From an uncultured Bacteroidota bacterium (GTDB lineage Bacteria; Bacteroidota; Ignavibacteria; UBA10030; UBA6906): DNA of 64,000 bases. Both the position numbers and the translations under genes were made by a program. Under the pieces are notes generated by a model. It ran no database searches, was not told the origin of the DNA, and saw nothing but the letters and a program-made list of their open reading frames with translations. Of the stretch, positions 3,159 through 56,178 are shown in pieces (position 1 is the first letter of the stretch; every line of letters starts with the position of its first letter). The stretch is taken from positions 762,376 to 826,375 of the forward strand of contig CAWEKI010000009.1 in NCBI GenBank assembly GCA_963809695.1, read 5' to 3'.

Positions 3159-3419
3159 TCAGGTTTTTTCCTGGAAAGGCGCAATCTCATATGCATAGTC
3201 CTCCATCACCGGATTCGCCAGCAGCTTCTTACACACTTCTTCCGTAGCTGCCCGGGCTTCCTCTTCCGATGGCCCTTCCACTTTCAGCTCCACATATTTC
3301 CCCATGCGCACATCCCGCACGGCGTTCACACCCAGGGAGGCGATGGCATGTCCCACGGCCTTCCCCTGGGGGTCCAGGATGGATGGCCGCAATGTGATCC
3401 TGATCTTTGAAAGGTACAT
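3159..3419 (-). CDS. purS: phosphoribosylformylglycinamidine synthase subunit PurS
   Basis: 86 aa reading ITLRPSILDPQGKAVGHAIASLGVNAVRDVRMGKYVELKV, typical of PurS. It sits adjacent to purQ. Confidence 0.85.
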   Translation of the reverse strand: MYLSKIRITLRPSILDPQGKAVGHAIASLGVNAVRDVRMGKYVELKVEGPSEEEARAATEEVCKKLLANPVMEDYAYEIAPFQEKT

Positions 3420-3455
3420 CTTGAACTCCTAAAAACTGTTCTTCATGTTCACGCC

Positions 3456-4226
3456 CTACGGTTCCACCTGCGTCGGTTCAATGACTTCGTCATCTTCGTA
3501 TTTCTCTTGCGGACGGTTCAAAATCCGCCTGCCTGTGGTGATGACATACCGTACCAACCCCAAGACTATGAACAAAAGAAGAAGCGGAAAAATTGCGCCG
3601 ACGCCTGTCACAAACACCACAATGACCGCAAGAATGGCAAAAACGAACTTCCAGGGCTCCTTTTTGAGCGCACGGCGCGAGATCTTTGGGAGCGTATCGT
3701 ATTTCACTTTGCTCACCATGAGCAAGCTCAACACGACCGACAGCCAGGGGAGAAAGAACGCCGCCCGGGAATCTAATCCCGTCGCCTCCGAGTAATAATT
3801 CAGCGTGAACGAGGCCACCGTAAGCGCGCTGGCAGGAATGGGAAGTCCGGAGAAATAGTCCTTGTTGAACCCCACAAGCTGGACGTTGAATCGCGCGAGC
3901 CGCAGGACGCCAAAGATCATCAGCAGCGAGCTCAGGAGGATCCCCATCCCTTCGAGCTGATAGAGCGACATGCGGTAGACAAGAAACGCGGGAGCGGCGC
4001 CGAACGAGATCGCGTCCGAGAGCGAATCGATCTCCACGCCGAATTCCGAGGACGACTTGGTGATCCTCGCCATCACGCCATCCAGGGAGTCGAACCCGGC
4101 AGCCAGCGCGATGAACCAGGATGCGGTAATATACTCCCCCCGGCTGGAGTGGATGATCGACATAAAACCGCAAAACATGTTAAGAACAGTGAACAGACTC
4201 GGAACGACGGCACGGGTAATTTTCAT
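3456..4226 (-). CDS. pssA: CDP-diacylglycerol--serine O-phosphatidyltransferase (CDP-alcohol phosphatidyltransferase family)
   Basis: 256-aa polytopic protein. The motif AAGFDSLDGVMARITKSSSEFGVEIDSLSDAISFGAAPA matches the D-G-x2-A-R-x8-G-x3-D-x3-D consensus. Confidence 0.8.
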   Translation of the reverse strand: MKITRAVVPSLFTVLNMFCGFMSIIHSSRGEYITASWFIALAAGFDSLDGVMARITKSSSEFGVEIDSLSDAISFGAAPAFLVYRMSLYQLEGMGILLSSLLMIFGVLRLARFNVQLVGFNKDYFSGLPIPASALTVASFTLNYYSEATGLDSRAAFFLPWLSVVLSLLMVSKVKYDTLPKISRRALKKEPWKFVFAILAVIVVFVTGVGAIFPLLLLFIVLGLVRYVITTGRRILNRPQEKYEDDEVIEPTQVEP

Positions 4227-4239
4227 GCATCAACCTAGT

Positions 4240-4932
4240 CTAATGTACGACAGCAAGCACAGTCTCGCCTGCAACCGTCCTGTCGCCCAGTGCCACACGC
4301 ACCTCCGCACCCAACGGAATGATCACGTCCACGCGCGATCCGAACCTTATCATTCCGAAGCGCTTTCCTGCCTCCGCTCGATCCCCCTCCTTTACATCCG
4401 CAACGATCCGTCGCGCCACATATCCCGCAATCTGCTTGAACAAGACGCCGACCCTTGCACCCCGGACGCCGATGTGGGTGCGCTCATTGCGGACAGACGA
4501 TTTTTCCTCGTACGCCACAAGGTATTCGCCGGGAAAGTGCCTGAAGTATTCCACCGTGCCGCTGATCGGCCAGCGGTTCACATGCACATTGAACGGGGAC
4601 ATGAATATACTGACCTGCGTCCCCTCGTTTTTGAGATATTCGTCATCCTGAACGGGTTTGATCAACACCACTTCGCCGTCAGCGGGCGAGATCACCAGGT
4701 CATCCCCCGGCGGTGTCGTGCGCTCCGGATCACGGAAAAAACTCAACGTGAAGACAACCGCGAGGGCCGCGACCGCTGTGATCCCGTACTTCAGCCAGGT
4801 CACATCAAGCAAAATCCAGGAAGCCGCACAGATTACGAGGGCAATCCCACAAACGACGGCTATGACGCCATACCCGTACTCGGTAACCAAAAGCGCCTTC
4901 CAGGATGGGCTTTGAGTGGATGAGCTTGACAA
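4240..4932 (-). CDS. psd: phosphatidylserine decarboxylase proenzyme (short type)
   Basis: 230 aa containing FFRDPER...ISPADG, MSPFNVHVNRWPISG and a C-terminal G-S self-cleavage region (RFGSRVDV). It lies downstream of pssA, matching the PS-to-PE pathway order. Confidence 0.8.
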   Translation of the reverse strand: MSSSSTQSPSWKALLVTEYGYGVIAVVCGIALVICAASWILLDVTWLKYGITAVAALAVVFTLSFFRDPERTTPPGDDLVISPADGEVVLIKPVQDDEYLKNEGTQVSIFMSPFNVHVNRWPISGTVEYFRHFPGEYLVAYEEKSSVRNERTHIGVRGARVGVLFKQIAGYVARRIVADVKEGDRAEAGKRFGMIRFGSRVDVIIPLGAEVRVALGDRTVAGETVLAVVH

Positions 4933-5210: not shown

Positions 5211-6761
5211 CTATTTCACGTGAAACTCGATGCGCCGGTTTTTCGTCCGTCCCTCGGCGGTGACATTGGATGCAACCGGGAACCGGGAACCATACCCGAC
5301 GGCGGTCACCTGATTCGATGGAATCCCCCGCATCACCATCCAGCTCTTCACTGCCTCGGCGCGGTTCATTGACAACCTGTCGTTTGTTGAGACCTTTCCT
5401 GCGTTGTCGGTATGCCCGGCAATCTCCACGCGAAGACCGGGATTCAGCTGCAAAGCCAGTAAAGCCTTTTTAAGTGTCGGCTCGGACGACTTCGCGAGTT
5501 TCGCGCTGCCACTCGGGAAGGTCACCCCCTCCAGAATGATCGTCTTCCCCTTCTCGAGCTTCATGGGTACAGAAGGAGTATCGTCACTGGGATCCAGGGG
5601 GTTTGTCCCGCGCTTCACTTCATCTCCGTCATTTATTCCTCCCCCATCGGTGTCCGCCTTCAACGGGTCTGTGTGGGTGCGGCGCACTTCGTCACCATCC
5701 GACAAGCCGTCCTTGTCGGTGTCGGCAACACGCGGGTCGGTCTTGTAGACCATGACTTCATCATAGTCCGAGAGCCCATCCCCATCCGTGTCCACCTTGA
5801 GCGGATCAGTAGTGTACACCAGCACTTCGTCTCCATCGGACAACCCGTCACCGTCGGTATCCACTTTGAGCGGATCCGTTTTATACCTCAGCACCTCGTC
5901 TCCATCACTCAAGCCGTCGCCATCGGTATCCACCTTGAGGGGATTCGTTTTGTACTTCAATACTTCATCTCCGTCGCTCAAGCCATCGCCGTCCGTATCC
6001 GACCGGAGCGGATTTGTCCGATACCGTTTCACCTCTTCTCCATCCTTCAGCCCATCGTTGTCCGTGTCAGGTCGCTTGGGATCGGTCCCGTAGCGGCGCT
6101 CTTCTCCGTTGGTGAGTCCATCAATGTCGTCATCCTCGTCGTCCCCTCTGCCAAGGTAGAGCTGGATTCCCGCTTTGGCCGTAATCATCCCGTCGATCGA
6201 CGAATTCCTCCGGAAATCGATCCAGTCGCCGTACGATCGGGCTCCCACGTCAAGGACGACCGAGAAACTCTTCGAGGTAAAAAACTCAACCCCGACTCCC
6301 ACCGGAATCATCAGCGAAGTCCGGTATTTGTCATCGGGGAGATACGTTGTCCCTGACATGCGCTTGAAGCTGAGCCCCCCCACACCAGCATAGAGGTACG
6401 GATTGAAACTGCTTCCCGGCGACAGGTGAAGGAAACCCAGAATTGAGTAAGGGACTGCTTTCAGCTGCACAGCCCCAAGCTGGTATCCGTAGTCCAGATC
6501 CGTGAGAACCGGACTCTGGTTGGTCTTGAGTTGTTCATACCCGGCGCTGAGTCCAAGGGAAAAATACCTGTTCAAGCCGTACCCCAGGAGGAACTCTCCG
6601 CCGAAACTCATCTGAAGCTTGTTGAAATCGGAGATCCAGGTATTTGGACCGCCCCGGAGACCGATCATCCATTTTCCGTCCGTTTGCTGCGCATAGGCTC
6701 TGTCCTGCACTGCCAGTGCGAGCATCAGACTTACCGACAGGAACACACCTAGTCTTTTCAT
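5211..6761 (-). CDS. OmpA family outer-membrane protein with an N-terminal beta-barrel, about eight thrombospondin type-3 repeats and a C-terminal OmpA peptidoglycan-binding domain
   Basis: Signal peptide [25 protein letters not shown]. The repeats read [23 protein letters not shown] about 8 times. The C-terminus [30 protein letters not shown]...RRIEFHVK is the OmpA_C domain. Confidence 0.85.
5590..6145. repeat. tandem 69-bp coding repeats (about 8 units) encoding the calcium-binding thrombospondin-3 repeats of the OmpA protein
   Basis: The near-identical peptide units [13 protein letters not shown]-x-x-YKT-[DN]-PLKV are encoded head to tail. Antisense shadow ORFs 5673..6356 and 5788..6093 show the same periodicity. 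Confidence 0.7.
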
Positions 6762-6917
6762 GGGAGACCTTCAGTTGATTTCATCGAACCCCGCACAAAG
6801 CTATTGGTTTTGATGTGCAAAATCAAGGGTGCGTTTGCGAAGGGAAAATAAAAATCCCACACCTCGCGGATGTGGGATTTGCCGAATTCCTGGTAGTGCA
6901 GTGTATCAGCGGGCGTA

Positions 6918-8030
6918 TTACTTCAAAAGGATCGTCTTCTTCACCTGAACCCTGTTGTCCGACTTGAGCACATAAAAGTATGTCCCACTTGACAAATTCG
7001 ATGGATTCCACACCACCGAGTGCTCTCCCGGCGTCACAACTTCATTGACGAGAGTCGCGACCTCTTCACCGAGCGTGTTGTAAATCGTCAGCGTCGTGTG
7101 CCCCTGCCTGGCCAGCGAGAACGAAATTATCGTGCTGGGGTTGAACGGATTCGGATAGCTCTGCTTCAGCGCAAATTCTTTCGCTCTCGGCGCCGGATCA
7201 ACCGCTGTAGCTGCGTCAGCAAGAGCATCAGAGAAGTGGTTCGTACCGTCGAGATCCACCTGGCGCAACCGGTAATACTTGCACGACGGCAGGGTGTTGT
7301 CGGTGAATGAATACGAATGCGTGTCTACGGTCGTGCCATAGCCCGGCTGGAAGGAATTGCTCACGTCGGCCCAGCTCTCCATGTCGTCGCTCTTCTGCAC
7401 GTAGAAGCCATAATTGTCGATTTCCGAAAGGGTGGTCCACGTCAGCTGAACCGACCCGGCCGCAGAAACGAGAGTAAACGAGGCAAGCGTGATGGGAAGC
7501 GGCCCCACGGAGATTCCTGTGTTGTCGATATAGACATCCTTGTTCGAGCTCACCACGAGATAGACGGTAAAAATGGAATTCCCAACATCGGCCGGAAGGG
7601 GTGCTGAGAATGATCTGAATGAACCATTGGTCAGATCGCTGCCGACGTCTTTGGACAAAATCAAAGTTGAGTTTGCGTAGACGTTCAATGTTCCCGACGT
7701 GTTTCCTGTGCGCGACGCACCAAATGTGAAGACCTCGCCACCGCTAAAGGTTCTCCCTCTGGCGTCAACTACTGCAAACAAGGTGTCAACACTGTTCCTG
7801 ATACCAGTCTCAACCCAGGCGCTGAGAACGTTCACAGCAAACTGTGCGGTGCCACTGGCAGAGTAAGTCCCCCAATGTCCGTCTCCACCTGCATATGTCC
7901 TCCCATCTGAAGTAGCGAAAGCGGAGGCGCCAGTCCAATTGTAGAAATACGGAAACGTGGAAATCGGTGTTTGAGCGTTGCCCACCGCGACCAGCATCAG
8001 CACTGCAAGAATCACTCCCAAGAACTTCAT
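6918..8030 (-). CDS. secreted protein with a T9SS (Por) C-terminal sorting domain
   Basis: Signal peptide MKFLGVILAVLMLVAVGNAQ. The C-terminus reads YPNPFNPSTIISFSL...LTIYNTLGEEVATLVNE...GTYFYVLKSDNRVQVKKTILLK, the T9SS CTD pattern. Confidence 0.75.
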   Translation of the reverse strand: MKFLGVILAVLMLVAVGNAQTPISTFPYFYNWTGASAFATSDGRTYAGGDGHWGTYSASGTAQFAVNVLSAWVETGIRNSVDTLFAVVDARGRTFSGGEVFTFGASRTGNTSGTLNVYANSTLILSKDVGSDLTNGSFRSFSAPLPADVGNSIFTVYLVVSSNKDVYIDNTGISVGPLPITLASFTLVSAAGSVQLTWTTLSEIDNYGFYVQKSDDMESWADVSNSFQPGYGTTVDTHSYSFTDNTLPSCKYYRLRQVDLDGTNHFSDALADAATAVDPAPRAKEFALKQSYPNPFNPSTIISFSLARQGHTTLTIYNTLGEEVATLVNEVVTPGEHSVVWNPSNLSSGTYFYVLKSDNRVQVKKTILLK

Positions 8031-16306: not shown

Positions 16307-17407
16307 TCACTCCCCAGTGAAAGTGCCCGCAGTGACTCCATCGCCGTCGTATTGGTGCAAAGAACTGTTTTGGGGAAACGTCGTCCGAAATCGCAGCAGG
16401 CATCCTACACCGCCAAGCCGATCCAACGCCTCACTCTGATTGACGATTTCGATTGTACATCGATGTTGTTCGGCGAGTGTCACCATCTTGTCCTTCATGT
16501 GGAATTCCGGGTCGAAAGATTCCGCCATCACAAGAACGTCTGTAACACCCAACTGCAGAGCTTCCAATGTAGCCTCTGCACCAGCAACTGCAAGGCCGTC
16601 TGTATTGATCTCTCGAACAAGTCGGTCGACCATCTCCAGTGACTCCTGCTCTTCCCTTTCCACAAACGCGGCAATTGTCCTGGTGACAATGTCTTGAACG
16701 TTGGCTTGACGGGATATGTCCACTACATCGACGAACTTTGCAGAAAGATGATGTGGGAGTGCGTTCCGCAACTGCCATGCCGATTCACCCGCCAGGATGA
16801 GATGTGTGTGGCCTCCGGACGACATCACACGGTCGAGCACCTTGACCTCTTCCTGCATAAATGTCTCCCTCCGAAGTGCCCGGCGGTGCTGGTACTGCTG
16901 TCTCGTCCACGTCTGATCAACATGTTCACGGAGCTTGGGCTGAGCAGTCCAGAGTTGTTTCGTTACCTCCCCGAGATTCACTTCCAATATGCGCACGCCT
17001 TTGTAGTTCAAGGCGACTACCACGTACCGATGATATGTATCTTTCATCTCCACCAAGTGATAGACGTTGGGATAGGGGCCCACAGCGATCATATTGGGAA
17101 GTGGAGGCTTGAACTGAAGCGGCAGAAAGAACGGACGTAATCCGCCGCGGGCAAATATTGCCGCACCCCGACCCGTCCGGTACATTTCCTCCGACATGTA
17201 ACGACCGACACTCTCCATTGCTTGCTGGAAATGAGAGAGGTGGCCTAGCGGGAGGCTGTCCTTAAGCAATGACACCCGATGCTTGGTGAATTCCCGCAGT
17301 TCTGCCGCACTGTTCTGGAGATTCATGTAGACGCTGACCACTGGCGCTTCGGTTTCTTCGAGTGCGACCAGCATGCGTATGTGATCTTGTAGTTCCTTGA
17401 GTTCCAT
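16307..17407 (-). CDS. bacterial eRF1/Pelota-like (baeRF1-type) protein
   Basis: 366 aa. The C-terminal segment DGLAVAGAEATLEALQLGVTDVLVMAESFDP matches the conserved motif of eRF1 domain 3 / Pelota C-terminal domain (G-x-A-V-Y-G-x-x-E-V-x-x-A-L-E-x-G-A-V-x-x-L-L-V-S-D). The overall length and N/M/C organisation fit this family. GGGGAG ribosome-binding site. Confidence 0.6.
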   Translation of the reverse strand: MELKELQDHIRMLVALEETEAPVVSVYMNLQNSAAELREFTKHRVSLLKDSLPLGHLSHFQQAMESVGRYMSEEMYRTGRGAAIFARGGLRPFFLPLQFKPPLPNMIAVGPYPNVYHLVEMKDTYHRYVVVALNYKGVRILEVNLGEVTKQLWTAQPKLREHVDQTWTRQQYQHRRALRRETFMQEEVKVLDRVMSSGGHTHLILAGESAWQLRNALPHHLSAKFVDVVDISRQANVQDIVTRTIAAFVEREEQESLEMVDRLVREINTDGLAVAGAEATLEALQLGVTDVLVMAESFDPEFHMKDKMVTLAEQHRCTIEIVNQSEALDRLGGVGCLLRFRTTFPQNSSLHQYDGDGVTAGTFTGE

Positions 17408-21960: not shown

Positions 21961-22034
21961 TGCCCCGTCGTCTAATGGCAAGACAGCAGACTCTGGATCT
22001 GCTTATCGAGGTTCGAATCCTTGCGGGGCAGCCA
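21961..22034 (+). tRNA. tRNA-Gln (anticodon CTG), CCA encoded
   Basis: 7-bp acceptor stem tgccccg/cggggca with U1-A72. Anticodon loop cuCUGga. T-loop GGTTCGAATCC. Discriminator G followed by CCA. Confidence 0.9.
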
Positions 22035-22037
22035 CTA

Positions 22038-22071
22038 GCATTTTGGATTGCGGATTTTGGATTTTGGACTG
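22038..22071. repeat. left arm of a ~34-bp imperfect inverted repeat built of aaaatcc units, flanking the four-helix-bundle gene
   Basis: gcattttggattgcggattttggattttggactg is the reverse complement, with one unit transposed, of 22545..22578 cagaccaaaatccgcaatccaaaatccaaaatgc. Confidence 0.8.
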
Positions 22072-22162
22072 TTATCGCAAGCTGAGTACAGTCTCAATTC
22101 CAATTGCTATTTGAAAACTGGACCATGAACTGCCACACCCATTCGTTCAGAAGGAGTGTAGA

Positions 22163-22531
22163 GTGGCTGGCATCGAGCAGGATCTAAAGCAACGGATGAA
22201 GAAACTCGGCGTAGAGATCATCCGCATGGTTGAGGGTCTGCCTCACCAGCTTGGTGCTGAAACCATCGGCAAACAAATCATCCGATGTGCAACATCGATC
22301 GGGGCCAATTATCGCGCAGCCTGCCGTGCACGGTCAAAAGCCGACTTCATCGCAAAGATTGCTATTGCAGAAGAAGAGAGCGATGAAACGATGTACTGGC
22401 TTGAAGTGCTTCAGGAGTTGAAACTTGTTGAAGCCCAATCATTCGATGAGTTGCACCGTGAAGCTGAAGAGCTTACAAAAATCCTTGTGGCTTCCGGCAG
22501 AACGGCAAAACAGAGCATGGCAACGAAGTAA
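22163..22531 (+). CDS. four-helix-bundle protein (23S rRNA intervening-sequence protein / Avd-like family)
   Basis: 122 aa reading LKQRMKKLGVEIIRMVEGLPHQLGAETIGKQIIRCATSIGANYRAACRARSKADFIAKIAIAEEESDETMYWLEV. The conserved S-I-x-x-N-x-x-E-G and E-x-x-Y-W-L motifs of TIGR02436 are present. It is flanked by long inverted repeats as in rRNA IVS elements. Confidence 0.8.
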   Translation: MAGIEQDLKQRMKKLGVEIIRMVEGLPHQLGAETIGKQIIRCATSIGANYRAACRARSKADFIAKIAIAEEESDETMYWLEVLQELKLVEAQSFDELHREAEELTKILVASGRTAKQSMATK

Positions 22532-22544
22532 TCACTGCCACTCA

Positions 22545-22578
22545 CAGACCAAAATCCGCAATCCAAAATCCAAAATGC
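22545..22578. repeat. right arm of the inverted repeat flanking the four-helix-bundle gene
   Basis: Partner of 22038..22071. It ends 5 nt before tRNA-Glu. Confidence 0.8.
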
Positions 22579-22583
22579 TCGTT

Positions 22584-23840: not shown

Positions 23841-24078
23841 AGAGCACACGAGAGAAGTGAGAGAGAGCAAAAATGAAACGAATGTGATAAAAGATACTCT
23901 TCGGGAAGACGACAATCAATCAAGAAGCGCAAGGAGTTAAAGAATGGAAGATGGAGAATCGAAAATCGAGGATGGAGGGATTTTTCTCCTCAAGATGAAG
24001 AAGTCCAAAAAAACTTGGCCCCCATCTCGGAAAAACGACTTACGGACTGTAATACATATAGGAAGGAGGAAGCAATCA

Positions 24079-24459
24079 ATGGCCAAAGGAGACGATCTAC
24101 AGGAACGGTTCGTGAAACTGGCGGCTGCAGTGATTCAGTTGACCAGGAAGCTGCCGAAGGATGATGGGGGAAAACACCTGGGTGGGCAAATATTGCGCAG
24201 CGGAACTTCACCGGCACCTAATTACGCCGAGGCGAGAGGAGCAGAGAGCGACAAGGATGTTGTGCACAAGCTGGGCATCGTGCTAAAGGAGTTAAATGAG
24301 ACGGTTGTGTGGCTCCAGGTGGGAGCATGCAGCAACATCTGCACAGAAGAGGCGGTGGCCGGAATTCTGGAGGAGTGCCGGGTGCTGGCCAGGATCATTG
24401 CGGCGAGCATTAGCACGGTCAAAAGAAGAGTAGGAGCATTACCTGGTAGTGGCAGCTGA
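24079..24459 (+). CDS. four-helix-bundle protein (23S rRNA IVS protein / Avd-like family), second copy
   Basis: KGDDLQERFVKLAAAVIQLTRKLPKDDGGKHLGGQILRSGTSPAPNYAEARGAESDKDVVHKLGIVLKELNETVVWLQV matches the same family pattern as 22163..22531. GGAAGGAGGA ribosome-binding site before the ATG at 24079. The ORF-track extension back to 23944 is translated repeat DNA. Confidence 0.75.
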   Translation: MAKGDDLQERFVKLAAAVIQLTRKLPKDDGGKHLGGQILRSGTSPAPNYAEARGAESDKDVVHKLGIVLKELNETVVWLQVGACSNICTEEAVAGILEECRVLARIIAASISTVKRRVGALPGSGS

Positions 24460-24496
24460 TGTACAAGGGCGGATAAAAAAGACAACTCCAGCTTTG

Positions 24497-24596
24497 AGAG
24501 CCGGAGTTGATCGAAGATGAAGATTCGAGAATCGAAGATCGAAAATGACCCGCAATTCTCGATCCTCGATTTTCAATCCTCGATTTTCGATTCTTG
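24497..24596. repeat. hairpin/inverted-repeat element with atcgaaaatcgagga units, lying between the second four-helix-bundle gene and the 3' end of tRNA-Arg(ACG)
   Basis: gaagattcgagaatcgaagatcgaaaatg...attctcgatcctcgattttcaatcctcgattttcgattc contains complementary arms. A related left copy, ggagaatcgaaaatcgaggatgg, sits at 23950..23975. Confidence 0.5.
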
Positions 24597-24670
24597 TGCG
24601 CCTGGAGGGACTCGAACCCCCAACCGTCTGATCCGTAGTCAGGCACTCTATCCAATTGAGCTACAGGCGC
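24597..24670 (-). tRNA. tRNA-Arg (anticodon ACG); no encoded CCA
   Basis: Reverse complement GCGCCTGTAGCTCAATTGGATAGAGTGCCTGACTACGGATCAGACGGTTGGGGGTTCGAGTCCCTCCAGGCGCA. Acceptor gcgcctg/caggcgc, anticodon loop cuACGga, T-loop GGTTCGAGTCC. Confidence 0.85.
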
Positions 24671-25941: not shown

Positions 25942-27000
25942 CTATTTGTATCCCACTGAGACAAACCCCACCCAGTGTTTCAGCGAAAACGGAGCCGTGG
26001 TCCCCATCCCCGTTTGCTTCAGCGGAATGACCCCTTCTGTGTACGTGTCGGAATAGCGCAGCACTGTTCCTGTAACGCTCCGATGCTTCACGTTCGTTGC
26101 GGTTTTCTGGAGCGTCAGCAGGCCGAAGGGAATCGAATACTTGCCGCACCAGACGACATTTCCCTGGTCGGCATATGTTGGACCCCAGAGATCGCGCGTG
26201 AGTTCGCTGACCTTGCGGCTGTCGCTTGCCCCGGCAAGATCATTTTGTGCAATCGAGCTGTCGCGCTCGACGCCCCGCGTATGTGCCGCGGCATCCTCGC
26301 CGAACGGCACGTTGTTGAAATCTTTCCCGTAGTGGTTCGCGTCGGATGAGATGAGGATCACGATGTCCTTCCCCAGCACATATTTCTTTTCCTGAATGTA
26401 TTGCGCTAATGCGCCGGCGAGCCTCTCGGAGAGTTCTTCCATCCGTTGCAACGGCATGGCGGTCACCATGATGGGAGTGATAATCACTCCTCTATTATAG
26501 TGTTGGAGGAACGGAATGGCGGCTTCGATCGAATGTTCCAGTTCATGCGCCTTGTTGCTCACGAGGATCTGCGAGGAATCCATTCGGCTTCTGATGTACT
26601 CGCGCAGTGGAGAGACCGGGACGTCGGCATACGGTCCCCGCCATTTCTCGAACGTATCGAAGATAAGGACATTCTTCGGATCACCAATCTCTTTCCTGAC
26701 GCCGCCGTGCATCACGCCGAAGATCACGACCTCTTTTGCCCGCAGTCCGCGGTAGAGAGCTATGTAGACCCGCCCGGCATAGAGGAAGTCGTCATGCGGA
26801 GAGATCCCCCCAACCAGGCCGGTCGGCACCGGATTGTTCTGCTCATTTTTCTCCAGGTAGGCAATGAGGCGGTCCATCTGGGCTGCGTCCCAGCAGAAGC
26901 CCACATCGTCACGGACAGGGCGGATATTCTGTGACGAGGCAACAAGGGGCAGAGCCGGGAGGATGAGGAGGGAGAGTGATATTAGTGAGAGGAATCGCAT
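25942..27000 (-). CDS. secreted MEMO1-like protein (AmmeMemoRadiSam system protein B-like fold)
   Basis: Signal peptide MRFLSLISLSLLILPALPLVASSQ. GISPHDDFLYAGRVY resembles the Memo P-H-A-G-Y-x-Y-S-G motif. HYGKDF matches the second His region. The family assignment is tentative. Confidence 0.45.
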   Translation of the reverse strand: MRFLSLISLSLLILPALPLVASSQNIRPVRDDVGFCWDAAQMDRLIAYLEKNEQNNPVPTGLVGGISPHDDFLYAGRVYIALYRGLRAKEVVIFGVMHGGVRKEIGDPKNVLIFDTFEKWRGPYADVPVSPLREYIRSRMDSSQILVSNKAHELEHSIEAAIPFLQHYNRGVIITPIMVTAMPLQRMEELSERLAGALAQYIQEKKYVLGKDIVILISSDANHYGKDFNNVPFGEDAAAHTRGVERDSSIAQNDLAGASDSRKVSELTRDLWGPTYADQGNVVWCGKYSIPFGLLTLQKTATNVKHRSVTGTVLRYSDTYTEGVIPLKQTGMGTTAPFSLKHWVGFVSVGYK

Positions 27001-27077
27001 CGAGGGAGTCCTTATGTAATAGAGGAAAGATATACGATTCCCGGGTTTGGGTCAAGCTGGGGACAAGACGAACACAG

Positions 27078-27213
27078 AGGGAGGAGAAAAATTGAGGATG
27101 GAAGATGGAGGATGGAAGATGGAGGATGGAGGATGGAGGATGGAAGATTGAGAATTGAGCCTGCCTTTACATAATTTTCAATCCTCGATTCTCAATCTTC
27201 GATTTTCAATCCT
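27078..27213. repeat. degenerate long hairpin with no ORF; left arm is ggatggaagatggagg tandem units, right arm is tcaatcctcgattctcaatcttcgattttcaatcctc
   Basis: The left arm has about 6 tandem 11-12-bp units (gaggatggaag/atggaggatgg). The right arm is its approximate reverse complement around the loop cctgcctttacataa. Its sequence family is the same as the repeats flanking the 24079 gene. Confidence 0.5.
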
Positions 27214-27243
27214 CGTGCGCCTGACAGGAGTCGAACCTGCAAC
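27214..27243. repeat. 30-bp direct duplicate of the 3' end of tRNA-Arg(TCG)
   Basis: cgtgcgcctgacaggagtcgaacctgcaac at 27214..27243 is identical to 27326..27355. Two small hairpins (27248..27291 and 27297..27319) separate the copies. Confidence 0.8.
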
Positions 27244-27327
27244 TCCCAAAATAACACGACTTAACGTTTCCTGTTAAGTCGTTGTTATTTTGTGGATCCC
27301 GCTCGTTTTCCGAGCGGGACCTATACG

Positions 27328-27401
27328 TGCGCCTGACAGGAGTCGAACCTGCAACCCTCAGATCCGAAGTCTGATGCTCTATCCAGTTGAGCTACAGGCG
27401 C
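27328..27401 (-). tRNA. tRNA-Arg (anticodon TCG); no encoded CCA
   Basis: Reverse complement GCGCCTGTAGCTCAACTGGATAGAGCATCAGACTTCGGATCTGAGGGTTGCAGGTTCGACTCCTGTCAGGCGCA. Anticodon loop cuUCGga. T-loop GGTTCGACTCC. Confidence 0.85.
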
Positions 27402-27618
27402 GGTTGCTGGTTGATACGTACGAAAAAGATTCCTCTTTTGCAATCAGGATATCGACGTGCTTTTGCGGCGGAGGAATGCCGCATCAAGTGCACTCCCACT
27501 TTGGGCCGCACGGAGTGTGCACATCTGTGACAAAAAGGGCCCCACGACGGGGGCCCATGCTTTGCAGAATACGGAGACTCAGGCTCGGACGAGCAATATC
27601 AAATGACTCCGGAAATCT

Positions 27619-48300: not shown

Positions 48301-48512
48301 TGACGGTCGTCAATAGGTCTTTTGCGGACGGGAAGCGTACAGACGCAAGAACAAAACCAGGTTGGAGCTCTGCTCACCCTTACTCGAGGGCAGACGGAAG
48401 AATGAGAAGGGTAGAATAGAGTCATTCTGCCTTCTGCCCTCTACCCTCTAATGGGGAAGGGGTGAGTTCTCCGTAGATTAACCTCTAACCCCTATCACCT
48501 GGCACCTAACAC

Positions 48513-51215
48513 CTACTTCAACAGCAGCATCTTGTTTATCGCCGAGAACTGCCCCGCACGCATCCTGTAGAAATAGATCCCTGATGCCAACGGGACTCCG
48601 GCGTCACTCCGTCCGTTCCACTGCACGCTATAATATCCCGGTTCCTGAGCTCCGTTCATGAGCGTTGCCACTTCTTTGCCAAGTATGTCAAAGACCTTTA
48701 TCGTCACCTGACTGGCCACCGGCAGCTGATAGCTCACGACTGTCGTCGGATTGAACGGATTGGGATAGTTCTGCGAAAGGCCGAATGCCACCGGCACTCC
48801 CTTTCCTGTCCCTTGCGCCTTGATGGGGATCGCATGGTTGAATCCATCGCGCGCCTGTGCGGAGGAGACTCCAAGGCTTGCATTTCCTTCAAACCTGAGC
48901 CGGAGGATTTCACCGGATCCGTTGATGCAGGGCTCCTTTGAGGCGGGAAGCGCGAAGTCAACGAGGAGCCGGCCGTTTGCCTGCGTGCTCATCATGATGG
49001 GCGGGATCGTCCTCCCGTTCAGCAGGCTGCCCGGTTCAACGCCCAGGAATTTCCCATGCTGCCCGTTCAGCTCCAGCGAGAGCCCGCGCAGATCCGCGAC
49101 AGCACCGCTGAGCAGGACCGGGATCACCGTTTCTCCGCCGGCAATAACAGGCGAGCCTGTTACTACATCGATCGGCTCAACCTGCTGGACGCCTGGCTTG
49201 GCAATCTGGTGTCTTGAGCTGATGTTGTAGCTCATGGCAAAGATGAGAAGATCTTCAAAGTCGATCTTTCCATCGGCCACCGACCGGGTGAACAGGTACC
49301 CGTCCTGCGTCGGGCCGATATCGAATTTCTTCTTGTAGTTCGTCATGCCCCCCGCATAGCCGGAGACGCCTGACCAATAGCCAAGCGACCAGGCAGAAAG
49401 GTCTTCGAAATCGACCTTGCCGTCTCCGGAGGCCTCACTGCTGCCATAGACATCGGCGAGGTAGGCTCCGTGGAGTGCGTCGTGGGCGGTGACAAAGATG
49501 GAAGTCGCCGAGGGCAGACTCTCGAATGAACACCCGGTCACGGTCAAGCCGCTGCTTCCCGGTTTGATCACTTCAAGAACGATCTTCGCCACATACTGCC
49601 CCGGCGTGATGGTTGTATTACTCACCAGACTTGCAGTGAAATGGACACCCCCTCTCAATCCTGCAGTGTCAGGGATCGGGGGCACACTACTGAAGACCGA
49701 GCCGCTGAAATCCACCGATTTGTATCTGAGGACAGCGTCGTCCCAGTCGATGGTGAGGGCACAGCTGCCAAATTGGGCGCCGACTTCAGGCACAACGTAG
49801 ATCTCTTGAAGCTGTGTGCCGGTGAAGCCCCAGTCGTTCACCCGCGCCGGGTATCCTCCATCCCATCCGGCGTTCGGCCTGAACGTTGCCGAACTGGTCG
49901 CGCCTGAAGAAGAGCCCAGATAGAGATCGAATGCCCCGGCGGTTGGCTCCGCGAAGGCGAAATCGGTGAAGTGCATCGTTGTGAACGTGAACGTGTGGGC
50001 TGTGCTGTTGTAGATCCCGCCCACAGGGATCCAATCTCCGGAGGAGGCACTATAATAGAGCACGTTACTTTGCGCGCTGAAGCCCCCTATACCATTGACA
50101 TTTACCGTCACCGTGTCGCAGAAGCTGTGTGCGGGCAATGAAGATGTGATCTCAAACCAGAAAGGCAGACATGTTGCACCACCCGGAGGCGTCCACGCTG
50201 GCACGGAGGTGTGACGGGTGACGGTCACGCTCCCTCCTCCGGCAGGCAAGGTCCCAAAGCTCATTGATACACCACTCGTCGGGAAGCTATATGGCGTCCC
50301 GGTCTGCGTGACATTCGCTGTCTCGGAACCCGCCGGAGCGCCAGTCGTGAAGCTCCAGGTGGGACCCGTTATTGTAGAGATACCATCGCTCACGGTAGCA
50401 TACCATTCATACTCTGTCGAGTTTCCAAGTGAGGGCCAGGAGATGCTTGTGCTCGAACCCGATGCGACGCCCGCATTCGTTCCGAGCAATGTGAAAGGTG
50501 CGCTCGCATCCATGGTGTAGTCCAGGGTATACGGAGCCGCTCCGCCATAATTGAACTGAGGAATCGTGGGGGAGTAGGATTGTACGGTGATCTTGTTGTT
50601 CGCCGGAGAGAATGTGAGAATTCTCAGCCAGCCATCCCCCCCGTTGCTATCCTGGTAGTCGGACAGAATGGAATAGACGGGGTCCATGCCCGTGCGGGTA
50701 TCAGTTTTTTTCGCTTCGTAGCACGTATGGCCGGACAACATCAGGAAAAGATTCGGGTTGTCGCTGAGCGCGTTGTAGATGGCCGTTCCGGGAGCCGCGA
50801 AGGTTCCGGTATTAGTAAGGATCGAGTGACTGGCGACAATCGCACGCCGGGTGCTATACTCCTTGAGCCTTGCATCTGCCCAATCCAGCACTGCCGTAGT
50901 TGGTGTCTGGTCGCCAGACCCCAGATAGATGACAATGAAATCCATCCCACTGGCGGAAAAGAGCTCGAAGTTGTTGTTGTTATCCGACCCATAGTGACCG
51001 CCATAGTAGCTGCGGCCATCGAAGCGGGTGACGCCAAAGTAGTTGTTGTACAGGGTTGTCGTGTTTCCGTCAGGCAATTTGTCATGGTTGCCGATGGAGA
51101 TGCCATACGGGAGACCGGGCGACGGACTTTCCAGGATCGTCATCGCCGTGTTGGCCCTTTGCCACGACGCGTCGACATTATCGTTTGTGATGTCCCCCTC
51201 CATAATCACGGCCAC
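48513..51215 (-). CDS. C-terminal 900 aa of a giant T9SS protein: metallophosphoesterase (calcineurin-like) domain, conserved domain, cohesin-like, dockerin-like pair, CTD
   Basis: GNHDKL...LMLSGHTCYE (phosphoesterase His motifs). GDGKVDFEDLSAWSLGYW / ADGKIDFEDLLIFAMSY. The C-terminus ends NYPNPFNPTTVVSYQLP...IKVFDILGKEVATLM...YFYRMRAGQFSAINKMLLLK. Confidence 0.75.
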   Translation of the reverse strand: MAVIMEGDITNDNVDASWQRANTAMTILESPSPGLPYGISIGNHDKLPDGNTTTLYNNYFGVTRFDGRSYYGGHYGSDNNNNFELFSASGMDFIVIYLGSGDQTPTTAVLDWADARLKEYSTRRAIVASHSILTNTGTFAAPGTAIYNALSDNPNLFLMLSGHTCYEAKKTDTRTGMDPVYSILSDYQDSNGGDGWLRILTFSPANNKITVQSYSPTIPQFNYGGAAPYTLDYTMDASAPFTLLGTNAGVASGSSTSISWPSLGNSTEYEWYATVSDGISTITGPTWSFTTGAPAGSETANVTQTGTPYSFPTSGVSMSFGTLPAGGGSVTVTRHTSVPAWTPPGGATCLPFWFEITSSLPAHSFCDTVTVNVNGIGGFSAQSNVLYYSASSGDWIPVGGIYNSTAHTFTFTTMHFTDFAFAEPTAGAFDLYLGSSSGATSSATFRPNAGWDGGYPARVNDWGFTGTQLQEIYVVPEVGAQFGSCALTIDWDDAVLRYKSVDFSGSVFSSVPPIPDTAGLRGGVHFTASLVSNTTITPGQYVAKIVLEVIKPGSSGLTVTGCSFESLPSATSIFVTAHDALHGAYLADVYGSSEASGDGKVDFEDLSAWSLGYWSGVSGYAGGMTNYKKKFDIGPTQDGYLFTRSVADGKIDFEDLLIFAMSYNISSRHQIAKPGVQQVEPIDVVTGSPVIAGGETVIPVLLSGAVADLRGLSLELNGQHGKFLGVEPGSLLNGRTIPPIMMSTQANGRLLVDFALPASKEPCINGSGEILRLRFEGNASLGVSSAQARDGFNHAIPIKAQGTGKGVPVAFGLSQNYPNPFNPTTVVSYQLPVASQVTIKVFDILGKEVATLMNGAQEPGYYSVQWNGRSDAGVPLASGIYFYRMRAGQFSAINKMLLLK

Positions 51216-54540: not shown

Positions 54541-56178
54541 CTACTTCAAAAGCACCATCTTCTTGATCGCACTGAATTCTCCCGCCCGCATCCTGTAGAA
54601 GTAGATCCCGCTCGTCACCTGGACGCCGGCGTTGTTCATGCCGTTCCATTCCACGGTGTGGACGCCCGCTTCACGCACTTCGTTCACCAGCAGCGCCACT
54701 TCCTCGCCCAGCAGGTTGTACACGCGAACCTCCACGTTGGCCTGCGAGGGGAGCTGGAACTGGATCGACGTCGTCGGGTTGAACGGGTTCGGATAGTTCT
54801 GGTCCAATGCGAAGGCCACCGGGATTTCCTTCTCTGGTACCTTCACGTTTATAGCCAGCGATGCATTTGTGCTCGAACGAGCTTCTGCCCTGCCCACCTG
54901 CACCGACGCTGAACCCGCAAAGCGCAACACCACCAGCTCGCCGTTGCCCGCTATTCCCTTGGCGCTCAGGCCGGCGATTGCGAGATCAACATCGACCCGG
55001 CCGTTCGAACCGTTGCTCATCAGCATGACCGGCGTGGAATAACCCTGCAACAGCGTTCCCTTTTCGACTCCTATGAGCCTGCCGAATTTCCCGCTTGCGG
55101 TGATCGACATCGCACGGACATCCTGCACGTCCCCTGTGATCAGCACCGGGATACGCGTCTCGCCGTTCAACACGGATGGCGTGCCCGTGGCGATCGTCAT
55201 CCCCTGGCTTGCTGTGACCGCCCGCTTGGGAAGATGGAACTCGTTGCTCTGGCCATATGCAAGCGAGAACAGGACCAGGTCTTCGAAGTTGATCATTCCG
55301 TCAGGCACCGGGAGCGATTTCGTCGATCCATTTTGCGTCGGACCGATATCGTATTTCACCTTGTAGTTCGCCATGCCGGGAGCATACCCGGGGACCCCCG
55401 ACCAATACGAGAGCGACCAGACCACAAGATCTTCGAAGTCGATCTTGCCGTCTCCCGTCGATCCTCCGGCGATGGTCGCAAAATCGCCCAGGTACGCCTT
55501 CACATGGCCGACGTGCGGAGTGATGAAGACGTTTGCCGGCGGATTGCTGGGAACGTACGCGCGCATGTCGGAGGTGATGACGGACACCGGGCTGTAGCCG
55601 GGTTTCAGGAGCGTAAAGATTAGCCCAGCGATGTGATCTCCTGCTGCCGTGTTGAAGTTCGTGTTGTCCATACGGCTGCAATTGAGGGTTACACGCCCAG
55701 CGTTCCCGAGCTGATCGTACAGCACGGTGACAGGATACGCATGATCGCTGCTGAACAACCCGTTCGGGCTTCCGGCGCTGCCCCAATCAACATCGTCAAG
55801 ATGCATGACGGTCGAATCCCACTCCACAGTCAGGTTGCAGACGCCAAAAGCGCTTCCCGGCTGCGGGGCAAGATACACCGTCACCGGCTGCGAGCCTGTC
55901 CATGACCAGTCGTTCGGTTCATAGCCCGTCGGCGCGCCCCATGCCGTATTCGGATATATCACGTTTGCCATGGGTATCGGCAGGCGCGGTATCGACATAC
56001 AGCTCAAACACGCTGCCCGCCGGATTGGCAAATCCGAACTCGCTGAAATGCATCGTGGTAAATGTGAACGTGTGAGTGCCGGCGTTATATGTACCCGGCA
56101 TCGCAGTCCACGCAGAGCCGCCTGTAGAGTGGCCCAACAGACGCGATGTGGAGCTGAATCCCGAGATCCCGCTGACAT
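54541..56178 (-). CDS. C-terminal 545 aa of a giant T9SS protein: conserved domain, cohesin-like, dockerin-like pair, CTD
   Basis: GDGKIDFEDLVVWSLSYWSG / PDGMINFEDLVLFSLAYG. The C-terminus ends NYPNPFNPTTSIQFQLP...VRVYNLLGEEVALLV...YFYRMRAGEFSAIKKMVLLK. A frameshift near 55950 links it to ORF 55919..59191. Confidence 0.75.
   Translation of the reverse strand: MSAGSRDSAPHRVCWATLQAALRGLRCRVHITPALTRSHLPRCISASSDLPIRRAACLSCMSIPRLPIPMANVIYPNTAWGAPTGYEPNDWSWTGSQPVTVYLAPQPGSAFGVCNLTVEWDSTVMHLDDVDWGSAGSPNGLFSSDHAYPVTVLYDQLGNAGRVTLNCSRMDNTNFNTAAGDHIAGLIFTLLKPGYSPVSVITSDMRAYVPSNPPANVFITPHVGHVKAYLGDFATIAGGSTGDGKIDFEDLVVWSLSYWSGVPGYAPGMANYKVKYDIGPTQNGSTKSLPVPDGMINFEDLVLFSLAYGQSNEFHLPKRAVTASQGMTIATGTPSVLNGETRIPVLITGDVQDVRAMSITASGKFGRLIGVEKGTLLQGYSTPVMLMSNGSNGRVDVDLAIAGLSAKGIAGNGELVVLRFAGSASVQVGRAEARSSTNASLAINVKVPEKEIPVAFALDQNYPNPFNPTTSIQFQLPSQANVEVRVYNLLGEEVALLVNEVREAGVHTVEWNGMNNAGVQVTSGIYFYRMRAGEFSAIKKMVLLK

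What the first reader, a model, noticed from the sequence alone, without database searches (positions are those of the whole stretch)
27060..27401. Empty IVS-like hairpin next to tRNA-Arg(TCG), with a 30-bp direct duplication of the tRNA 3' end as a target-site-duplication-like footprint
A degenerate long hairpin has tandem ggatggaagatggagg units on its left arm and complementary tcaatcctcgattttc units on its right arm, and carries no ORF. It is followed by an exact 30-bp copy of the 3' end of tRNA-Arg(TCG) (27214..27243 versus 27326..27355) and then two small hairpins. Duplication of a tRNA 3' segment is the classic footprint of site-specific integration into a tRNA gene. Here the inserted DNA is only about 250 bp and encodes no recombinase. 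That suggests a non-autonomous element mobilised in trans, or a decayed copy of the ORF-carrying elements at sites 1 and 2.
Basis: seen in the sequence. Interest (0 to 1): 0.7.

Follow-up and report, generated by a model that had tools for sequence, protein, structure and literature searches.

The report
Empty heptamer hairpin beside scarred tRNA-Arg
Two unrelated things sit side by side here: a gene-less copy of a long hairpin built from 7-base repeats, which elsewhere encloses a small four-helix-bundle protein gene, and a separate 112-base insertion scar in the end of a tRNA-Arg gene; the scar is ordinary, but the hairpin family seems widespread and hardly described.

Summary

**Geometry.** The two 30-nt copies of the tRNA-Arg(TCG) 3' end bracket only 82 nt (27244-27325), which is two tight hairpins. 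The long hairpin (27076-27215) lies outside the repeat pair.

**Relatives.** In related metagenomic genomes (L014, L016) a homologous hairpin abuts the tRNA directly, with no duplication. So the hairpin is older at this site, and the 112-nt insertion is specific to this genome.

**The hairpin.** It is an ORF-less member of a family whose arms are inverted arrays of tandem heptamers.
- At sites 1 and 2 of the window and in the relatives, such arms enclose a PF05635/TIGR02436 gene (23S-rRNA-IVS protein, Avd-like).
- The same holds for 11 of 12 plasmid loci examined, from four phyla.
- A relative (L021) keeps a left arm and 5'UTR without the ORF at this same tRNA.

**The insertion.** It has the geometry of integrase-type integration into a tRNA 3' end, reduced to a terminator-like stub. 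No recombinase was found among the window ORFs tested.

The scar is ordinary. The heptamer-hairpin cassette is a new variant of IVS-like elements.

The parts
27076..27160 (+). Left arm of the long hairpin: a tandem heptamer array (GGATGGA / AGATGGA / AGATTGA units). It is about twice as long as the right arm.
   Evidence: TRF period 7 and 14; direct-repeat family D1; lag-7 scan. 94% identical over 51 nt to the outer-left arm of the PF05635 cassette in L021-L023.
27161..27173 (+). Apex/loop of the hairpin (cctgcctttacat). It contains no ORF.
   Evidence: Read directly; folds; ORF list.
27174..27215 (+). Right arm: three 14-nt units ATTTTCAATCCTCG (two heptamers each). It abuts the displaced tRNA 3' fragment.
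   Evidence: D3 and I1. The same 14-mer occurs in the site-2 arm, which abuts tRNA-Arg(ACG) (7 matches against 0.66 expected).
27214..27243 (-). Displaced copy of the last 30 nt of tRNA-Arg(TCG): T arm, 3' acceptor strand and 2 further nt. It is an attR-like relic. Its first 2 nt overlap the last heptamer unit.
   Evidence: D2; alignment A1.
27245..27295 (-). Hairpin B of the 82-nt insert: an A-tract / stem / U-tract, terminator-like on both strands.
   Evidence: (I3, I4).
27296..27320 (-). Hairpin A of the 82-nt insert: a 10-bp G+C-rich stem starting 6 nt after the tRNA 3' end.
27244..27325 (.). The 82 nt of new DNA between the two repeat copies. Together with one repeat copy it makes the 112-nt insertion that is absent from relatives.
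   Evidence: Alignment A1. Single copy in the window, with no homologue in any fetched locus.
27327..27401 (-). Intact tRNA-Arg(TCG). Its 3' 30-nt block differs at 7 positions from relatives, while its 5' 45 nt are identical to them.
27027..27055 (-). Promoter-like site (TTGACC-17-TATCTT) for the Memo-like gene (25942..27000, -), just beyond the hairpin.
   Evidence: a consensus match only; Pfam for the gene.
23940..24595 (+). Site 2, the ORF-carrying counterpart. It consists of an outer-left arm 23940-23977, a PF05635 ORF 24079-24459, an inner-left arm 24509-24545 and a right arm 24555-24595. The right arm abuts tRNA-Arg(ACG) at 24596..24670 (-).
   Evidence: 38-nt arms, 84% complementary, 580 nt apart.
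22034..22582 (+). Site 1. ATTTTGG / CCAAAAT heptamer arms (22034-22072 and 22544-22582) enclose a PF05635 ORF (22163-22531), between tRNA-Gln and tRNA-Glu.
   Evidence: In relative L014 the same hairpin is present with no ORF.

Best explanation
Two independent features lie next to each other.

**(A) The hairpin, 27076-27215.** It is a gene-less member of a hairpin family whose two arms are inverted arrays of tandem heptamers. The loop of this family normally holds a small PF05635/TIGR02436 four-helix-bundle gene, the protein family found in 23S-rRNA intervening sequences and related to DGR Avd.
- At this locus the hairpin is the older resident. It originally touched the 3' end of tRNA-Arg(TCG), as a homologous hairpin does in relatives and as the site-2 hairpin touches tRNA-Arg(ACG).
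- In ORF-bearing copies the layout is L-array, ORF, L'-array, loop, R-array. L and L' are direct repeats of each other. Recombination or slippage between them would remove the ORF and leave an over-long left arm, which is what is seen here. This step is inferred.
- As RNA the stem is a run of 6-bp helices broken every seventh base. By analogy with S23p-carrying 23S IVSs, it is most likely an RNase III substrate or processing and insulating hairpin. This step is inferred and was not tested.

**(B) The 112-nt insertion.** Later, 112 nt entered the tRNA at the 5' edge of its T arm.
- The incoming DNA carried its own copy of the last 30 nt, so the tRNA stayed intact. The old 3' end (27214-27243) was pushed downstream together with the hairpin.
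- This is the geometry produced by a tyrosine-integrase element integrating into a tRNA 3' end.
- Only 82 nt of the element remain: two hairpins that now look like the tRNA's terminator. Either the element was almost wholly deleted or it never carried genes.
For: **For (A)**
- Sites 1 and 2 have heptamer arms enclosing PF05635/TIGR02436 ORFs.
- Site 3 shares the 14-mer unit and the arm-to-tRNA junction with site 2.
- In relatives L014 and L016 a homologous hairpin abuts tRNA-Arg(TCG).
- ORF presence varies at fixed hairpin sites. The Gln-Glu hairpin has an ORF in the window and is empty in L014. L021 keeps the L arm and 5'UTR up to the ribosome-binding site, but no ORF, at the TCG tRNA.
- The site-3 left arm matches outer L arms (94% over 51 nt). 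Positions 54-135 of the hairpin match the L'-loop-R hairpin of L033 at 82%.
- In 40-kb plasmid stretches from Chloroflexota, Bacteroidota and Spirochaetota, the only lag-7 arrays lie within about 300 bp of the PF05635 gene.
- 11 of 12 plasmid loci have inverted heptamer arms, and 12 of 12 have flanking inverted repeats.
- The Coxiella 23S IVS that carries S23p has tandem GACAGAT heptamers at its RNase III site, with copy number varying between strains (PMC4990558).

**For (B)**
- Exact 30-nt direct repeat.
- A clean 112-nt indel against L014 and L016.
- The 82 nt are single-copy and are not derived from either flank, which excludes a simple tandem duplication.
- The tRNA is intact.
- The block that differs from relatives is exactly the duplicated block.
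- The same 30-mer ends an unrelated tRNA-Arg. There, a 366-aa tyrosine integrase (PF00589, 2e-30) sits against it in one contig (L009) and not in others (L011, L013).
- L033 shows a second case of hairpin plus an orphan tRNA 3' fragment, cut after the T loop, with no tRNA in 12 kb.
- The 82 nt fold as two hairpins, z = -9.6, one of them terminator-like.
Against: - No integrase or other recombinase lies in the 82 nt. None matched Pfam among the 27 window ORFs scanned.
- 82 nt is far smaller than any known integrative element.
- Under simple conservative recombination, one of the two 30-nt copies should be the resident form. Both carry the form that differs from all relatives. So the resident tRNA already had it, or extra events are needed.
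- No genome closer than about 80% protein identity was available, so the order of events rests on distant relatives.
- The L x L' deletion is inferred from arm length and from similarity between repetitive arrays, which can also grow by slippage.
- RNase III processing, transcription of the hairpin and any role of the hairpin were not tested.
- The + strand hairpin is much more stable than the - strand one, although the flanking genes are on the - strand.
- L033 is a contig in which an intron reverse-transcriptase ORF appears split into pieces, so its sequence quality is uncertain.
Confidence: 0.55

Rival explanations
1. The hairpin together with the small hairpins (about 250 bp) is one non-autonomous element that inserted into the tRNA gene, and the 30-nt duplication is its target-site duplication.
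For: The hairpin, the tRNA fragment and the small hairpins are contiguous. No recombinase lies nearby.
Against: The two repeat copies bracket only 27244-27325, and the hairpin lies outside them. There is no tRNA-derived copy to the left of the hairpin. Relatives L014 and L016 have a homologous hairpin abutting the tRNA with no duplication.
Confidence: 0.03
2. Foreign or sister-strain DNA carrying a tRNA-Arg(TCG) gene with its own terminator was taken up. It recombined by homology within or upstream of the tRNA on one side and by an illegitimate join on the other (homology-facilitated illegitimate recombination). The resident 3' end was left as a fragment, and no integrase was involved.
For: It gives the same end product as integration: an intact tRNA, new downstream DNA and a displaced resident 3' end. 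It explains the absence of any element genes. The region is rearrangement-prone: the four tRNAs are clustered in L014 but dispersed and partly inverted in the window and in L022.
Against: The join falls exactly at the edge of the T arm, and the repeat runs to 2 nt past the tRNA end. That is the typical extent of integrase identity blocks (my knowledge of tRNA att sites; Williams 2002, not re-read here). L033 has a second orphan fragment cut in the T-arm region. The same 30-mer is an integrase-associated tRNA end elsewhere.
Confidence: 0.17
3. The fragment is the remnant of a second, tandem tRNA-Arg(TCG) gene whose 5' two-thirds were deleted. It would be an ordinary tRNA pseudogene fragment.
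For: tRNA fragments are common. The two copies are in direct orientation 82 nt apart.
Against: All relatives examined have a single tRNA-Arg(TCG). The 82-nt spacer is not a copy of either flank, so a tandem duplication cannot have produced it. A terminator-like hairpin lies between the two copies. It needs a duplication, an insertion and a precise deletion.
Confidence: 0.1
4. The arrangement is functional as it stands. For example, the + strand hairpin plus the antisense tRNA fragment would make a regulatory or decoy RNA, or the T-arm fragment would serve as a processing signal for read-through transcripts into the Memo-like gene.
For: The + strand fold is much stronger than the - strand fold. 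A promoter-like site in the hairpin apex points towards the fragment. The 30 nt are still 100% identical to the tRNA end.
Against: The fragment lacks a 5' acceptor strand, so no tRNA-like minihelix can form (read). The arrangement is unique to this genome among those seen. Perfect identity is equally explained by a recent event.
Confidence: 0.05
5. Assembly artefact: the 112-nt insertion was created by the metagenome assembler.
For: The window comes from a metagenome-assembled contig of about 832 kb. Reads were not available.
Against: A 30-nt repeat is shorter than typical final k-mers. The 82 nt are unique and highly structured. The junctions are clean and the tRNA is intact.
Confidence: 0.03

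Closest known systems
23S rRNA intervening sequences (IVS) carrying an S23p/PF05635 ORF (Leptospira, Coxiella, Brucella, Xanthomonas)
   Same: The protein family is the same at sites 1 and 2 (PF05635, TIGR02436). The ORF is enclosed by complementary termini that form a long stem. ORF-less and ORF-carrying versions both exist, and distribution among relatives is sporadic. In Coxiella the stem carries tandem heptamers of variable copy number at the RNase III site (PMC4990558).
   Different: It is not inside an rRNA gene: the window has no rRNA. The hairpins sit in tRNA-gene spacers or against tRNA 3' ends, and on plasmids between protein-coding genes. The arms are whole arrays of heptamers. Site 3 has no ORF. 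Excision by RNase III was not tested.
tRNA-targeting integrative elements (tyrosine integrase; attL/attR are direct repeats of the tRNA 3' end) and their gene-less derivatives (CIMEs)
   Same: There is a direct repeat made of the tRNA 3' end, the tRNA is restored intact, the displaced copy lies next to the old downstream flank, and the insertion is absent from relatives. A CIME-like state, meaning att sites with no integrase, matches in form.
   Different: There is no integrase or any other gene, only 82 nt between the att-like copies. Described CIMEs are kilobases long, to my knowledge. Mobility in trans was not testable.
Intergenic tandem heptamer repeats of bacteria (cyanobacterial STRR-type heptamers, Xanthomonas GGGAATC, Beggiatoaceae TAACTGA)
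   Same: Tandem 7-nt units lie in intergenic DNA, often as convergent inverted pairs (Xanthomonas: 70-75 pairs, PMC4692102). They are reported as the most abundant intergenic repeat class, with no known function (PMC6344855).
   Different: Those papers do not link the repeats to PF05635 genes; they contain no mention of S23 or four-helix proteins. Here the arrays flank that gene in 11 of 12 plasmid loci and in the window lineage.
REPINs and MITEs (hairpin-forming non-autonomous repeats mobilised in trans)
   Same: Intergenic, hairpin-forming and without a coding sequence.
   Different: The arms are arrays of variable unit number, with different heptamers at different sites (ATTTTGG against GGATGGA), rather than one conserved REP or TIR. 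No short target-site duplication flanks the hairpin. No RAYT or TnpA matched among the window ORFs scanned.
DGR accessory protein Avd
   Same: PF05635 is described as resembling Avd (PMC10053308).
   Different: The ORFs flanking sites 1-3 that were scanned match no reverse-transcriptase family. Template and variable repeats were not looked for, and site 3 has no ORF at all.

Membership tests
23S rRNA intervening sequence (IVS) | Inserted in a 23S rRNA gene (helix 9, 25 or 45) | tested here: not met
   Rfam finds only four tRNAs and no rRNA in the 64 kb. The hairpin lies between a tRNA fragment and a Memo-like gene.
23S rRNA intervening sequence (IVS) | Complementary termini forming a long stem | tested here: met
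   42-bp stem on the + strand, -49.4 kcal/mol; arms 84% complementary.
23S rRNA intervening sequence (IVS) | Excised from the precursor RNA by RNase III | not testable with these tools
   Needs RNA end mapping or in vitro cleavage.
23S rRNA intervening sequence (IVS) | May carry an S23p/PF05635 ORF | tested here: not met
   There is no ORF in the site-3 loop. The feature is met at sites 1 and 2.
Heptamer-armed PF05635 cassette (family defined here) | Two inverted arrays of tandem heptamers | tested here: met
Heptamer-armed PF05635 cassette (family defined here) | Sequence homology of the arms to ORF-carrying copies | tested here: met
   Shared 14-mer with site 2; 94% over 51 nt to the outer arm in L021-L023, and 82% over 82 nt to the L033 hairpin.
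Heptamer-armed PF05635 cassette (family defined here) | PF05635 gene between the arms | tested here: not met
   Empty loop at site 3. The ORF-less state is also seen in L014 (at the Gln-Glu and TCG sites) and in L021.
tRNA-integrating element (tyrosine integrase type) | Direct repeats consisting of the tRNA 3' end, with the tRNA left intact | tested here: met
tRNA-integrating element (tyrosine integrase type) | Presence/absence polymorphism with a precise empty site | tested here: met
   L014 and L016 lack exactly the 112 nt. These are distant relatives, about 82% protein identity.
tRNA-integrating element (tyrosine integrase type) | Integrase gene inside the element | tested here: not met
   The 82 nt hold no ORF. 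No integrase matched among the 27 window ORFs scanned.
MITE | Terminal inverted repeats, a short target-site duplication and many copies | tested here: not met
   The 82-nt unit is single-copy in the window and absent from all fetched loci. The duplication is 30 nt. The rest of the genome was not searched.
REPIN | Pair of conserved REP sequences and a RAYT gene in the genome | tested here: inconclusive
   The arms are heptamer arrays that differ between sites. No RAYT matched among the window ORFs scanned. The genome outside the window was not seen.

The most novel reading that the evidence does not exclude
Inverted arrays of tandem heptamers are the cis-element of a widespread, selfish or semi-mobile gene cassette that encodes the Avd-like four-helix-bundle protein (PF05635).
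- 23S-rRNA IVSs would be just the best-known landing sites. tRNA spacers and the inter-gene gaps of defence operons would be others.
- Gene-less heptamer hairpins such as 27076-27215 would be footprints left when the gene is lost by recombination between the arrays.
- If so, part of the long-unexplained excess of intergenic heptamer repeats in prokaryotes traces back to this cassette and to its processing by RNase III.
Probability: 0.3. Interest if true: 0.8.

Novelty: new variant of a known kind. Interest (0 to 1): 0.5.

Why it matters
**The tRNA scar.** By itself it is routine. It shows that a tRNA-Arg 3' end was hit by incoming DNA and that almost nothing of that DNA is left.

**The hairpin.** This is the more useful part.
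- Together with sites 1 and 2, the relatives and the plasmid loci, it shows that the PF05635 gene family habitually sits inside hairpins whose arms are heptamer arrays. This family is known mainly from 23S rRNA intervening sequences and as the DGR accessory protein Avd.
- These hairpins occur with and without the gene at the same genomic sites.
- Tandem heptamers have been reported as the most abundant intergenic repeat in prokaryotes with 'no clear clue' to function (PMC6344855).
- A testable link to one protein family and to RNase III processing would give that old observation a handle. It would also place IVSs in a broader class of elements.

Tried and rejected
**Searches for close relatives and further copies**
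- Genome-contig scan with the Memo-like neighbour: only 37-57% identical relatives, with no tRNA synteny.
- Metagenome-contig scan for the 27-mer of the tRNA end: six contigs from unrelated organisms, none with heptamers. It was still useful, because of the integrase in L009.
- Viral-contig scans for the 27-mer and for hairpin B: no hits.
- Exact-protein look-ups for the window's own neighbours: contigs without retrievable DNA, or none on record. Several relatives from sample 3300075153 also had no DNA.

**Searches for known families**
- Rfam at permissive threshold over 26950-27480: only the tRNA, plus sub-threshold miRNA-precursor and other matches far below their gathering scores, reflecting generic hairpin shape.
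- Pfam on ORFs next to the orphan fragment in L033: nothing.

**Ideas rejected**
- Simple tandem duplication: the 82 nt are not a copy of either flank.
- A tRNA-like minihelix role for the fragment: there is no 5' acceptor strand.
- REPIN or MITE identity: see the membership tests.
- A general rule that the mRNA-sense strand folds better. Only site 3 is strongly asymmetric; the other hairpins are roughly symmetric.

**Literature**
- Searches for a described link between heptamer repeats and PF05635/S23p found only the single-species Coxiella remark.
Full report
**1. What is in the sequence**

ARAGORN and Rfam place an intact tRNA-Arg(TCG) at 27327..27401 on the - strand. Its last 30 nt (27326-27355) recur exactly at 27214-27243, 112 nt away, and the similarity fades over the next 5 nt. 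This 29-mer occurs nowhere else in the window.

Between the two copies lie 82 nt that fold almost entirely into two hairpins: -45.1 kcal/mol against -16.3 for shuffles, z = -9.6. Hairpin B scores as an intrinsic terminator on both strands.

To the left, touching the downstream copy, is the long hairpin.
- The left arm is an 85-nt array of GGATGGA-type heptamers (27076-27160).
- The loop is short.
- The right arm is 42 nt, made of three ATTTTCAATCCTCG units (27174-27215).
- As + strand RNA it forms 42 pairs, six of them G.U, at -49.4 kcal/mol. As - strand RNA it gives only -30.6.
- There is no ORF in the loop.

Heptad periodicity is specific. Lag-7 arrays occur at four places in the window, and lags 5, 6, 8 and 9 give none.

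**2.

The tRNA is on the - strand. Reading along the tRNA, the order is:
1. intact tRNA
2. 82 nt
3. 30-nt fragment
4. heptamer hairpin
5. promoter-like site and Memo-like gene

The direct repeats bracket only the 82 nt. The hairpin is outside the pair, next to the displaced copy. That is where the original downstream flank of the tRNA ends up when something integrates into a tRNA 3' end. The hairpin is not the inserted DNA.

**3. The hairpin belongs to a family that normally holds a gene**

Two other places in the window have heptamer arms.
- **Site 1.** tRNA-Gln, ATTTTGG array, a 122-aa ORF, CCAAAAT array, tRNA-Glu. The arms are 39 nt and 85% complementary.
- **Site 2.** A GGAAGATGG-type array, a 126-aa ORF, a second left-type array, a loop, and a right array that abuts tRNA-Arg(ACG). 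The outer arms are 38 nt and 84% complementary.

Both ORFs are PF05635 (23S rRNA-intervening sequence protein; E = 4e-22 and 1e-15) and TIGR02436 (four helix bundle protein). The site-3 right arm shares its exact 14-mer with the site-2 right arm, and both abut a tRNA-Arg 3' end.

**4. Relatives**

No close relative was found in the genome collection or through the tRNA 27-mer. Homologues of the site-2 protein and of the Memo-like neighbour led to metagenomic contigs from related organisms, at 77-83% protein identity.

*L014, L016, L017.* All four tRNAs are clustered.
- A heptamer hairpin abuts tRNA-Arg(TCG) directly.
- A PF05635 cassette abuts tRNA-Arg(ACG).
- The Gln-Glu spacer holds an empty ATTTTGG/CCAAAAT hairpin.
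- The alignment shows that the window differs from L014 and L016 by a clean 112-nt insertion between the right arm and the tRNA.
- So the hairpin is shared and the insertion is specific to the window's lineage.

*L021, L022.* At the TCG tRNA there is a left arm plus about 130 nt of cassette 5'UTR up to the ribosome-binding site, closely similar to the intact cassette at the ACG tRNA, but no ORF. This is direct evidence that cassettes decay at this site.

*Site-3 arm similarities.* The site-3 left arm is 94% identical over 51 nt to the outer-left arm of the L021-L023 cassette. Positions 54-135 of the hairpin match the inner hairpin of L033 at 82%. In gene-bearing copies the outer and inner left arrays are direct repeats, so recombination between them would delete the ORF and leave an over-long left arm, as seen. 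This step is inferred; array slippage could also lengthen an arm.

**5. The association is general**

A tblastn search of plasmids found PF05635 genes in cyanobacteria, Chloroflexota, Bacteroidota and Spirochaetota. Twelve loci were inspected.
- Eleven have inverted arrays of tandem heptamers on the two sides of the gene. The heptamer differs from locus to locus (AAGGATG, GTAAAAA, ACGATTT, GATTAGT, GAAAGTG, AATTCAA, TTTTAGA and others), but the two sides are always complementary.
- The twelfth has a 45-nt non-heptamer inverted repeat.
- In three 40-kb stretches from non-cyanobacterial plasmids, the only lag-7 arrays lie within about 300 bp of the PF05635 gene.
- In cyanobacteria, heptamer arrays also occur elsewhere.

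The literature contains the pieces but, in the library searched, not the link.
- The Coxiella 23S IVS that carries S23p has tandem GACAGAT heptamers of variable number at its RNase III site (PMC4990558).
- Xanthomonas has 70-75 convergent GGGAATC pairs (PMC4692102).
- A survey of 7006 genomes called tandem heptamers the most abundant intergenic repeat, with no clue to function (PMC6344855).
- PF05635 is described as Avd-like (PMC10053308).

**6. The 112-nt insertion**

A simple tandem duplication is excluded, because the 82 nt are not a copy of either flank. Any model must bring in new DNA together with a copy of the tRNA's last 30 nt. That is what integration into a tRNA 3' end does.

Three further observations fit this.
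- Relative to L014 and L016, the window's tRNA is identical in its first 45 nt but differs at 7 positions in the last 30. This is exactly the duplicated block.
- The same 30-mer ends an unrelated tRNA-Arg(ACG) in other metagenomes. There, one contig (L009) has a 366-aa tyrosine integrase with an arm-binding domain, followed by a terminator, right against the tRNA. Contigs L011 and L013 do not.
- In L033 a cassette hairpin is followed by an orphan 24-nt tRNA 3' fragment that stops after the T loop, with no tRNA in 12 kb.

Against the integrase model:
- There is no recombinase in the 82 nt. None matched Pfam among the 27 window ORFs scanned.
- Both copies carry the unusual block. So the resident tRNA already had it, or there were repeated events.
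- Homology-facilitated illegitimate recombination with a donor tRNA region would give the same product and cannot be excluded.

**7. How it most likely works now**

All of this is inferred.
- The tRNA is transcribed on the - strand and terminated at hairpins A and B.
- The 30-nt fragment is inert.
- The heptamer hairpin is a relic. If it is transcribed, its 6-bp helices broken every seventh base make it a plausible RNase III target, like the stems of S23p-carrying IVSs.
- At site 1 the whole arrangement (tRNA, stem, ORF, stem, tRNA on one strand) would release the ORF as a stem-closed RNA from a tRNA precursor, which is the IVS logic transplanted into a tRNA operon.

**8. Verdict**

- The duplication is a real insertion footprint, but of an 82-nt stub, not of the hairpin.
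- The hairpin is an empty, probably decayed, member of the ORF-carrying family.
- The scar is ordinary.
- The hairpin family is a new variant of IVS-like elements. It lies outside rRNA, has heptamer-array arms, and occurs at tRNA genes and inside operons. The link to PF05635 was not found described beyond one species.

Noticed in passing
L027-L032, L034-L042 (plasmid loci): PF05635 / four-helix-bundle genes on plasmids from four phyla are flanked by inverted tandem-heptamer arrays in 11 of 12 loci. In three 40-kb non-cyanobacterial stretches, these are the only heptamer arrays present.
   Followed up: partly
L028, L039, L037, L038, L027, L029, L042: These genes often sit between the genes of defence or nucleic-acid systems: cas2|4HB|cas1, csx2|4HB|cas1, helicase|4HB|methylase or large ORF (three cases), and DUF1156|4HB|Swt1-HEPN at the same position in Gloeocapsa and Chlorohelix.
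   Followed up: no
L033:3928-5816: A group II intron (Rfam RF02005 and RF00029, with fragmented RT/GIIM ORFs) lies immediately upstream of the PF05635 cassette, where the outer-left heptamer arm would be expected.
   Followed up: partly
L033:6436-6552: The cassette hairpin is followed by an orphan tRNA 3' fragment of about 24 nt (tgtgcacccaccaggactcgaac) that ends after the T loop. There is no tRNA gene in the 12-kb locus, and no Pfam hits in the ORFs to its right.
   Followed up: partly
L014:2400-2620 and 3400-3612: The hairpins next to tRNA-Arg(TCG) and tRNA-Arg(ACG) read as identical over about 86 nt, and the two tRNAs' 3' 29 nt differ by one base. This suggests gene conversion of hairpin plus tRNA end as a unit.
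   Followed up: partly
window 23940-24595: The site-2 right arm can pair either with the outer-left arm (22 nt at 95% complementarity, enclosing the ORF) or with the inner-left arm (a local hairpin). This is a possible alternative-structure switch.
   Followed up: no
window 48386-48446 and 54408-54475: Two more gene-less hairpins with heptad-like arms lie in intergenic DNA, not next to tRNAs. On the + strand they give z = -3.0 and -4.1; for the second, the - strand fold is no better than shuffles (z = +0.3).
   Followed up: partly
window 48483-48522 and 54508-54548: A shared motif of about 36 nt, built of heptamers (tctaacccctatcacct.gca.cta.cacctacttcaa), lies directly after the stop codons of two long - strand ORFs (48513..51215 and 54541..56178).
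   Followed up: no
L022:1915-2210, 3275-3355, 4586-4650: The relative carries further heptamer arrays of other sequence types (GGGAATA/GGGGATA, and CGTTCAC with its complement). It also has an orphan ATTTTGG hairpin between tRNA-Arg(ACG) and the peptidase gene, while its Gln-Glu spacer has non-heptamer hairpins.
   Followed up: no
L042:3026-3145, 5641-6204, 6839-7819: In the Dolichospermum plasmid, AATTACG heptamer arrays lie inside annotated coding sequences (helicase-related protein, hypothetical protein, DNA methyltransferase).
   Followed up: no
L009 versus L011 and L013: The same tRNA-Arg(ACG) is found with a tyrosine integrase against its 3' end (L009) and without one (L011, L013). L009 and L013 come from the same metagenome (Ga0209121). 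This looks like an occupied/empty att-site polymorphism, and the tRNA's 3' 30-mer is identical to the window's duplicated block.
   Followed up: partly
window 16307-17407 (-): An ORF with bacterial archaeo-eukaryotic release-factor-like domains (baeRF_family10 and eRF1_3). It is unrelated to the finding.
   Followed up: no
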